64,000 nucleotides of DNA from the human T2T-CHM13v2.0 reference genome, Homo sapiens: NCBI RefSeq assembly GCF_009914755.1, contig NC_060926.1, one strand, 5' to 3'. Every line of letters starts with the position of its first letter. Position 1 is the stretch's first letter. The notes under the pieces were generated by a model. The model was given only the letters and a program-made list of their open reading frames with translations, made no database searches and had not been told where the DNA came from. The position numbers and the translations under genes are program-made. Shown here piece after piece: positions 43,484 to 44,321 of this stretch.

Positions 43484-44321
43484 TTTTTTTAATTTATTTA
43501 TTTATTATTTATTTTTTATTATACTTTAAGTTTTAGGGTACATGTGCACATTGTGCAGGTTAGTTACATATGTATACATGTGCCATGCTGGTGCGCAGCA
43601 CCCACTAACTCGTCATCTAGCATTAGGTATATCTCCCAATGCTATCCCTCCCCCCTCCCCCCACCCCACAACAGTCCCCAGAGTGTGATATTCCCCTTCC
43701 TGTGTCCATGTGATCTCATTGTTCAATTCCCACCTATGAGTGAGAATATGCGGTGTTTGCGGTGTTTGGATCTTTGACAAACCTGAGAAAAACAAGCAAT
43801 GGGGAAAGGATTCCCTATTTAATAAATGGTGCTGGAAATTTATTAAAATTATAAAATTTTAATAAATTTTATAATTTTAATATAAATTTATTAAAATTAT
43901 AAAATTTAATTTTTATAAATTAAATTATAAAATTTTTATAAATTTTTATAAATTAAATTATAAAATAAATTAATTTTATAAATTATAAAATTTAATATAA
44001 ATTTATTAAAATTATAAAATTTTAATAAATTTAATAAATTTTAATATAAATTTATTAAAATTATAAAATAAAACTGGCTAGCCATATGTAGAAAGCTGAA
44101 ACTGGATCCCTTCCTTACACCTTATACAAAAATCAATTCAAGATGGATTAAAGACTTAAACGTTAGATCTAAAACCATAAAAACCCTAGAAGAAAACCTA
44201 GGCATTACCATTCAGGACATAGGCATGGGCAAGGACTTCATGTCTAAAACACCAAAAGCAATGGCAACAAAAGACAAAATTGACAAATGGGATCTAATTA
44301 AACTAAAGAGCTTCTGCACAG
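43484..44321 (-). mobile_element. Young L1 (L1PA2-type), 5'-truncated and 5'-inverted, with an internal A/T insert
   Basis: T-tail plus L1 3'UTR antisense (to 43768) with GAG at the ACA/ACG/GAG diagnostic site; ORF2 segment in opposite orientation 43769-44321; TSD TAAAACT(T/C)TTTT at 43477 and 44322. Confidence 0.95.
43836..44073. repeat. 238-nt pure A/T quasi-palindromic low-complexity insert
   Basis: No G or C in the interval; motif AAATTTATTAAAATTATAAAAT recurs four times, with inverted copies. Confidence 0.95.

What the first reader, a model, noticed from the sequence alone, without database searches (positions are those of the whole stretch)
43818..44073. 238-nt pure-A/T palindromic insert grown inside a young L1
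Seen: L1 ORF2 normally reads AATAAATGGTGCTGGGAAAACTGGCTAGCC; here 238 nt with no G or C sit between GCTGG and CTGGCTAGCC. The insert starts with a perfect hairpin AAATTTATTAAAATT-ATAA-AATTTTAATAAATTT (43836-43869), which recurs near 43999-44032, with partial copies in both orientations. Its first bases ATTTATTAAA (43838-43847) are the reverse complement of L1 bases just upstream (TTTAATAAAT, 43818-43827). Established: iterative snap-back synthesis of this kind is described for polymerase-theta end joining. Inference: de novo birth of a PATRR-like AT palindrome, datable because the host L1 is recent; possibly unstable or polymorphic.
Basis: partly seen in the sequence, partly recalled or inferred. 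Interest (0 to 1): 0.75.

Follow-up and report, generated by a model that had tools for sequence, protein, structure and literature searches.

The report
A/T-only repair scar inside young L1
A young LINE-1 copy on human chromosome 2 holds 234 added bases made only of A and T, pieced together from short forward and reversed copies of itself and of a ten-base word next door; it is likely the scar of a DNA break mended by repeated fold-back copying, an unusually long example of a known kind of scar and not one long palindrome.

Summary
43836-44073 is 238 nt without G or C; the next longest such run in the window is 41 nt. Other L1 copies have 5 nt here, so 234 nt were added and one G lost. The host is a young, 5'-inverted L1. 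No donor was found: the 34-nt hairpin and both junctions occur only here. The insert is a mosaic of local copies. A flank word 8 nt from the break occurs 7 times (decoy p 0.002-0.027). Primed copying explains it in 26-35 steps against 47-55 for shuffles, with growth starting at the left end. Best reading: iterative snap-back and end-to-end templated synthesis at a break, Pol theta-type (enzyme and timing inferred). It is not a PATRR: whole-insert arms are 71% alike against 92.7-100% for PATRR8. What stands out is size, about 20 or more template switches, and total G/C exclusion, which composition-blind simulation gives in at most 7 of 20000 runs. Reads, haplotypes, ape orthologues and genome-wide prevalence were not tested.

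The parts
43477..43488 (.). Left copy of the likely target-site duplication of the host L1 (11 of 12 bases match 44322-44333)
   Evidence: sequence; boundaries inferred
43483..43523 (-). Poly(A) tail of the host L1 (41-nt G/C-free run)
43521..43759 (-). L1 3' end (non-inverted piece); 100% identical over 240 nt to a chr4 copy, 94-99% to 38 others
43760..43768 (+). 9-nt tandem duplication of 43751-43759 at the inversion junction; about 726 nt of L1 are missing between the two pieces (L002 positions 1500 to 773)
43769..43835 (+). L1 ORF2 piece left of the break; 67 of 67 identical to L002, L004, L007
43818..43827 (+). Seed word in the left flank; found 7 times in the insert (3 direct, 4 reversed)
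43836..44069 (.). 234-nt A/T-only insertion replacing one G
43836..43908 (+). Three nested snap-back hairpins (15, 19 and 20 bp perfect arms; loops 4, 4, 6 nt); the 15-bp one ends where the template turns to G
43934..44069 (-). Right part, most cheaply explained as copies of the left part (tracts up to 26 nt) plus short snap-backs; holds the second 34-nt hairpin 43999-44032
   Evidence: split point inferred, cost minimum 43925-43945
44070..44321 (+). L1 ORF2 piece right of the break; 251 of 252 identical to L002
44322..44333 (.). Right copy of the likely target-site duplication
   Evidence: sequence; boundaries inferred

Best explanation
The 234-nt A/T-only insert is a mosaic of short forward and reversed copies of itself and of a ten-base word 8 nt to its left, and is likely the scar of one double-strand break inside an already integrated L1, mended by many rounds of microhomology-primed synthesis, probably by polymerase theta. 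Shown: the empty-site sequence, loss of one G, no donor found, the seed match, the nested hairpins, the dispersed exact repeats. Inferred order: the left 3' end folded back and copied the seed, then folded back on its own new tail several times (about 100 nt); the right end then copied pieces of that tail and snapped back (about 135 nt); the two tails annealed at a newly made homology. A/T-only primers would melt and re-prime, while copying into G/C would have stabilised the duplex and ended the cycle, which is the likely reason no G/C entered. The product is probably inert intergenic DNA with local hairpin potential.
For: Seed word 7 times in the insert and at bases 3-12; decoy break sites match as well on both measures in 0.2-2.7% of 2255-8985 sites. 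Primed-copy parse (2-nt priming): 35 steps left-to-right, 45 right-to-left, 26-27 two-ended, shuffle means 47-55; the left-right difference was reached in 1, 0, 0 and 0 of 60 shuffles. Mirror order (right tail first) costs 34-38 at best against 27 on the same grid. 43864-43882 is a 19-bp fold-back that can be primed by a 6-nt match. 17 of 18 exact direct repeats of 14 nt or more are dispersed, not tandem. No donor in the genome or in two public collections. Literature: TMEJ templated insertions come as direct and inverted copies, are AT-enriched, abort more often in AT-rich template, and longer ones take several rounds (PMC7165422, passages); Pol theta folds back from two base pairs (PMC11292364) and switches between cis, trans and untemplated modes (PMC4912351); TMEJ signatures are reported in human germline indels (PMC7615360).
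Against: Far longer than typical: 3-30 bp in PMC7165422's abstract, 1-157 bp in its Cas9 data, median 7 bp in PMC4912351, up to five templates in germline events of PMC8421209. Several early steps have only 0-2 nt of priming, and about 20 of the first 23 nt need untemplated steps if 4 nt is demanded. The shuffled null lacks repeats, so it shows structure, not which process made it; two-ended copying and later duplication both explain direct repeats. The first step at the right end has little priming. The enzyme cannot be read from sequence (Pol eta and lambda also fold back). The host L1 junction is itself irregular, which keeps an origin at integration open. One haplotype, no reads.
Confidence: 0.55

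Rival explanations
1. Same copying chemistry, but during integration of this twin-primed L1: second-strand synthesis from the inversion junction met a break 67 nt in, and ORF2p or host polymerases iterated there.
For: The junction 67 nt away carries a 9-nt duplication and a deletion of about 726 nt, against a median of 14.5 bp in tumour twin-priming events. Inversion junctions show end-joining features and ORF2p can extend DNA ends on DNA templates (PMC11702581, passages). Left-to-right polarity matches the direction of second-strand synthesis here (inference).
Against: L1 sequence is continuous across the insert but for one G, unlike a template switch. Growth from the cDNA (right) end, with L1 sense sequence allowed as template, costs 45 steps against 35. 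No sibling or source copy has either junction; the copy with an identical 3' end is 96% in ORF2 and has the empty site.
Confidence: 0.2
2. A short templated seed (roughly the first 70-100 nt) formed once and then grew over generations by slippage, hairpin-driven duplication or unequal exchange, like a VNTR.
For: Exact direct repeats of 22-34 nt; TRF reports periods 49, 86 and 115; eight short tandem repeats of period 5-10; allowing plain direct copying gives the shortest greedy parse, 21 tracts. PATRR alleles vary in length.
Against: 17 of 18 long repeats are non-adjacent with unrelated spacers; the two 115-nt periods differ by 5 mismatches and 7 internal gaps, none involving G/C, whereas most point changes at A/T give G/C (recalled). 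The three 29-nt units are identical.
Confidence: 0.17
3. Assembly or sequencing artefact in this one assembly.
For: Pure A/T hairpin-rich DNA is hard to sequence (PMC4255720 notes an artefactual PATRR8 in the older reference). No independent record found.
Against: Base-exact L1 flanks on both sides, a site-specific seed, and three identical 29-mers are not what consensus error would give (inference).
Confidence: 0.05
4. Capture of A/T-rich DNA from elsewhere.
For: Distal-template insertions occur at low rate (under 0.1% of repair in PMC7165422). The DNA-mode search skips simple sequence and found nothing, not even the locus itself, so it is uninformative.
Against: 34-nt hairpin only here at up to 2 mismatches; 29-nt unit has one 2-mismatch hit elsewhere, equal to the control count, in unrelated G/C-containing context; 0 exact hits in genome contigs and viral contigs; core word sits 8 nt from the break.
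Confidence: 0.03

Closest known systems
TMEJ locally templated insertions (TINS; Carvajal-Garcia 2020, PMC7165422; stem-loop extension, PMC11292364)
   Same: Tiny deletion, template within 20 nt of the break, direct and inverted copies, AT enrichment, several rounds.
   Different: 234 nt and about 20-26 tracts against 3-30 bp typical and 157 bp maximum in that data set; 100% A/T; mostly copies of newly made sequence, not of flank; Pol theta dependence untested.
Complex germline MMBIR-type templated insertions (Osia 2021, PMC8421209) and SD-MMEJ (PMC5728401)
   Same: Germline insertion with an inverted copy of a template within 100 bp and several template switches.
   Different: Up to five templates reported there; here 20 or more, and no G/C.
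PATRR8, 11, 17, 22 (PMC4255720, PMC1851657)
   Same: A few hundred bp, 97-99% A/T in PATRR8 against 100% here; can form hairpins.
   Different: No single symmetry axis: 71% gapped arm identity against 92.7-100%; longest perfect arm 20 bp; fold -50 kcal/mol for 238 nt against -122 for 300 bp (different programs); no translocation known to me or found.
Twin-primed 5'-inverted L1 insertion (10.1101/2024.08.27.596794; PMC11702581)
   Same: Host has poly(A), inverted ORF2 piece, internal deletion and a likely target-site duplication.
   Different: Deletion of about 726 nt is far above the 14.5-bp median; the A/T insert lies inside the inverted piece, not at a junction.

Membership tests
TMEJ templated insertion (TINS) | 5 bp or more identical or reverse-complementary to flanking DNA near the break | tested here: met
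   10-nt reverse complement of 43818-43827 at bases 3-12; 11-nt direct copy at 44029-44039; decoy p 0.002-0.027
TMEJ templated insertion (TINS) | Little flank loss (within about 15 bp) | tested here: met
   one G lost
TMEJ templated insertion (TINS) | Insert AT-richer than flank | tested here: met
   100% A/T against G/C-containing L1 flanks
TMEJ templated insertion (TINS) | Microhomology priming at switches | tested here: inconclusive
   0-10 nt in the snap-back parse, 6 nt at 43864-43869; short matches are cheap in two-letter DNA
TMEJ templated insertion (TINS) | Typical length 3-30 bp | tested here: not met
   234 nt; the source paper allows longer multi-round products up to 157 bp, so this is an outlier, not an exclusion
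TMEJ templated insertion (TINS) | Depends on POLQ | not testable with these tools
   needs biochemistry or knockout cells
PATRR | Nearly perfect palindrome of several hundred bp | tested here: not met
   71% whole-insert, at most 76% for any centre with arms of 50 nt or more; 92.7-100% in PATRR8 alleles
PATRR | AT-rich centre with less AT-rich palindrome ends | tested here: not met
   flanks are ordinary L1, not mirror arms; PATRR8 also lacks this feature
PATRR | Another AT-rich region beside it | tested here: inconclusive
   L1 tail and AT-rich flank about 310 nt left; region 27-37% GC throughout 39000-47999
PATRR | Cruciform extrusion and translocation breakpoints at the centre | not testable with these tools
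   needs plasmid assay and sperm PCR; PMC1851657 finds even the symmetric 187-bp PATRR17 extrudes poorly at physiological salt
Twin-primed L1 | 3' piece with poly(A), inverted upstream piece, target-site duplication | tested here: met
   duplication 11 of 12, boundaries inferred
VNTR / minisatellite | Head-to-tail copies of one unit, variable between alleles | tested here: not met
   TRF periods 66-82% with 9-16% indels; 17 of 18 long repeats dispersed; allele variation not testable

The most novel reading that the evidence does not exclude
The insert is a fossil of two-nucleotide DNA synthesis in the human germ line: a break repaired while dCTP and dGTP were scarce, so the polymerase stalled at every G/C template and re-primed, writing hundreds of A/T-only bases from a ten-base seed. 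Fold-back copying of the insert start ends exactly at the first G of the flank, blind simulation almost never stays pure (0-7 of 20000), and Pol theta in vitro makes longer products with some two-dNTP mixes than with all four (PMC11292364). If such scars form a class, they would be the raw material from which PATRR8-like 98% A/T palindromes arise by one further fold-back, and young L1 copies would give dated empty sites to study it.
Probability: 0.12. Interest if true: 0.7.

Novelty: new member of a known kind. Interest (0 to 1): 0.38.

Why it matters
It is a clean natural record of extreme templated synthesis: the pre-break sequence is known to the base from sister L1 copies, so order and polarity of copying can be read. 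It suggests that some A/T-only low-complexity DNA is written at breaks in one burst, not grown from microsatellites. No gene or annotated element lies in the window, so no functional effect is expected. It would matter more if a census showed a class of such scars, if G/C exclusion needed nucleotide-pool imbalance, or if alleles showed steps towards a true PATRR.

Tried and rejected
PATRR membership: rejected on symmetry. Source-element origin: both junction words are unique (the one other hit is an ordinary L1 with the empty-site length), and the chr4 copy with an identical 3' end is 96% in ORF2 and empty. Donor search in DNA mode gave nothing, not even the locus itself, so it is void. Growth from the right end alone: costlier. 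Aged tandem duplication: repeats dispersed, no G/C among differences. A weak hairpin in the empty-site sequence puts the break in a 5-nt loop (-8.2 kcal/mol for two hairpins together): too weak to count. Looking for a variant record: no hit for the coordinates in the supplements of PMC11724358 (1 file) and PMC12350169 (2 of 3 files searchable), none for the core unit in the supplement of PMC8421209; these are not full call sets, so they say nothing on polymorphism. PMC6191304: only its supplement list was seen. PMC2818517 was not held. Earlier scan notes were not available. No genome-wide count of G/C-free tracts was obtained, so rarity is unknown.

Full report
1. Observation. The window has 238 consecutive bases without G or C at 43836-44073 (127 A, 111 T); the only other runs of 30 nt or more are 41 nt (this L1's tail) and 32 nt. 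The 34-nt hairpin at 43836-43869 (15-bp arms, 4-nt loop) recurs exactly at 43999-44032. Two longer perfect hairpins overlap it: 19 bp at 43841-43882 and 20 bp at 43863-43908. The region folds at -51.9 kcal/mol as DNA, z -6.0, 0 of 200 shuffles as good.

2. Empty site and host. A genome search with 43770-44320 scored 40 of 593 candidates; 36 of the 39 other copies show both flanks abutting, 3 lack the left flank. Read directly, five of seven loci have GAAAA between the same 22-nt flanks; L003 and L005 end or invert near the site; L022, L023 and L024 also have the empty site. So 234 nt (43836-44069) are new and one G is lost. The host is a 5'-inverted L1: tail and 3' end on the minus strand (43483-43759), a 9-nt duplication (43760-43768), ORF2 on the plus strand (43769-44321), about 726 nt missing between the pieces (L002 coordinates), and a likely 12-nt target-site duplication with one mismatch. 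It differs from L002 at 1 of 319 ORF2 bases and from a chr4 copy at 0 of 240 3'-end bases, so it is young; the subfamily label L1PA2-like is recalled, from no call. The chr4 copy is only 96% in ORF2 and has no insert, so it is not the source.

3. No donor found. The 34-nt hairpin matches only this locus at up to 2 mismatches. The right junction word is unique, and the left has one 2-mismatch hit in an ordinary L1. The 29-nt unit occurs three times exactly, all in the insert, with one 2-mismatch hit on chr11, the same count as the control. It has 0 exact hits in genome contigs and viral contigs. The DNA-mode search was blind to this sequence.

4. Local origin. The word at 43818-43827, 8 nt left of the break, occurs 7 times in the insert (3 direct, 4 reversed), one short of the commonest 10-mers (8), and covers 69 nt. 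Decoy break sites match as well on both coverage and end match in 0.2-1.0% of about 8970 window sites and 0.6-2.7% of about 2270 sites in five L1 loci, for flanks of 20-50 nt; the L1 decoys include the homologous site, which probably accounts for their hits (not checked one by one). A greedy parse needs 21 tracts against null means of 27.5-31.8, 0 of 300 shuffles as low for each k of 2-5; the snap-back-only parse was matched by 2 of 300 shuffles at k=5.

5. Order of events (inferred). I parsed the insert allowing only templates that a break offers: the growing strand folding back, or the other end. With 2-nt priming this takes 35 steps from the left end, 45 from the right, and 26-27 if the left tail is made first (to about 43933) and the right end then copies it; shuffles need 47-55. 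The left-right difference was reached by 1, 0, 0 and 0 of 60 shuffles. The mirror order costs 34-38 at best. The left part reads as nested fold-backs: seed copy, 15-bp hairpin ending where the template turns to G, a 19-bp fold-back that a 6-nt match can prime, then a 20-bp one. Caveats: shuffles lack repeats; early steps have weak priming; direct repeats could also be later duplications. Against that, 17 of 18 exact repeats of 14 nt or more are dispersed, and the two 115-nt periods differ by 5 mismatches and 7 gaps without any G/C.

6. Why no G/C. In a toy simulation with composition-blind priming and copying, 0 of 20000 runs stayed pure to 234 nt in each of 24 settings, and 0, 2, 1 and 7 of 20000 in four settings seeded with the first 20 nt. 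Some rule is therefore likely needed, with the caution that this locus was picked for being pure. The ordinary rule is that synthesis through AT-rich template aborts and re-primes, while GC stabilises (PMC7165422, passages). Alternatives are a duplex barrier at the flank or nucleotide-pool imbalance; Pol theta made longer products with some two-dNTP mixes than with four (PMC11292364, section 7).

7. Comparison. It works like a TMEJ templated insertion and meets the sequence criteria (local template, tiny deletion, AT enrichment), but is an outlier: 3-30 bp typical and 157 bp maximum in PMC7165422, median 7 bp in cells in PMC4912351 (passages), up to five templates in germline events in PMC8421209 (passages). 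Germline TMEJ signatures and pangenome templated insertions are in print (PMC7615360, PMC11724358; passages); the latter removes repetitive variants, so this kind would be filtered out. Complex Pol theta-promoted insertions are also described in PMC13065848 and PMC5728401 (passages). It is not a PATRR: these are nearly perfect palindromes of several hundred bp, arms 92.7-100% alike in PATRR8 (PMC4255720, passages), and extrusion depends on length and central symmetry (PMC1851657, passages); here arms are 71% alike overall and at most 76% for any centre. Origin at integration stays open because the inversion junction is irregular (PMC11702581 and 10.1101/2024.08.27.596794, passages).

8. In print? 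I found no description of this locus or of long A/T-only templated scars in ten searches (listings only unless cited above). One search returned 0 papers; none of the 20 listed of 384 held 'PATRR', and papers with all three terms would rank first. Most subscription papers are outside the library, and variant call sets, bioRxiv supplements and one scanned supplement could not be seen; they may record this insert. Prevalence is unknown: I have no genome-wide count, and A/T-rich low-complexity tracts are common in human DNA (recalled).

9. Verdict. Real, well-defined, local in origin; an extreme member of a known kind of repair scar in intergenic DNA; PATRR reading not supported. Interest 0.38. 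Novel reading (two-nucleotide synthesis, PATRR precursor class): probability 0.12, interest 0.7 if true.

Noticed in passing
window 11-2701: Long 50-bp tandem array (about 46 + 9 copies, 75-78% match) that is not among the longest masked stretches listed; may be a known dispersed satellite (not identified).
   Followed up: no
L017 1422-1538 (chr11:45.97 Mb): About 115-nt AT-rich, partly self-complementary repeat of a roughly 30-nt unit directly before an Alu-like sequence; contains G/C, not a donor; could be another templated insertion.
   Followed up: partly
L003 (chr5:101.08 Mb) and L005 (chr18:73.39 Mb): Two other 5'-inverted L1 copies have their junction at or within about 15 nt of the same L1 position as this break; 3 of 39 copies lack the left flank, near what truncation alone would give.
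   Followed up: partly
L024 1713-3011 (chr4:78.61 Mb): L1 copy 100% identical to the host over 240 nt of the 3' end but only 96% in ORF2: chance, chimera or gene conversion.
   Followed up: partly
window 35590-36595: Older L1 ORF2 fragment covering the same L1 position, with the seed word and no insert.
   Followed up: partly
window 46812-46908 and 61431-61550: Ordinary TA/CA microsatellite-type tracts; unlike the insert they are dinucleotide-based.
   Followed up: no
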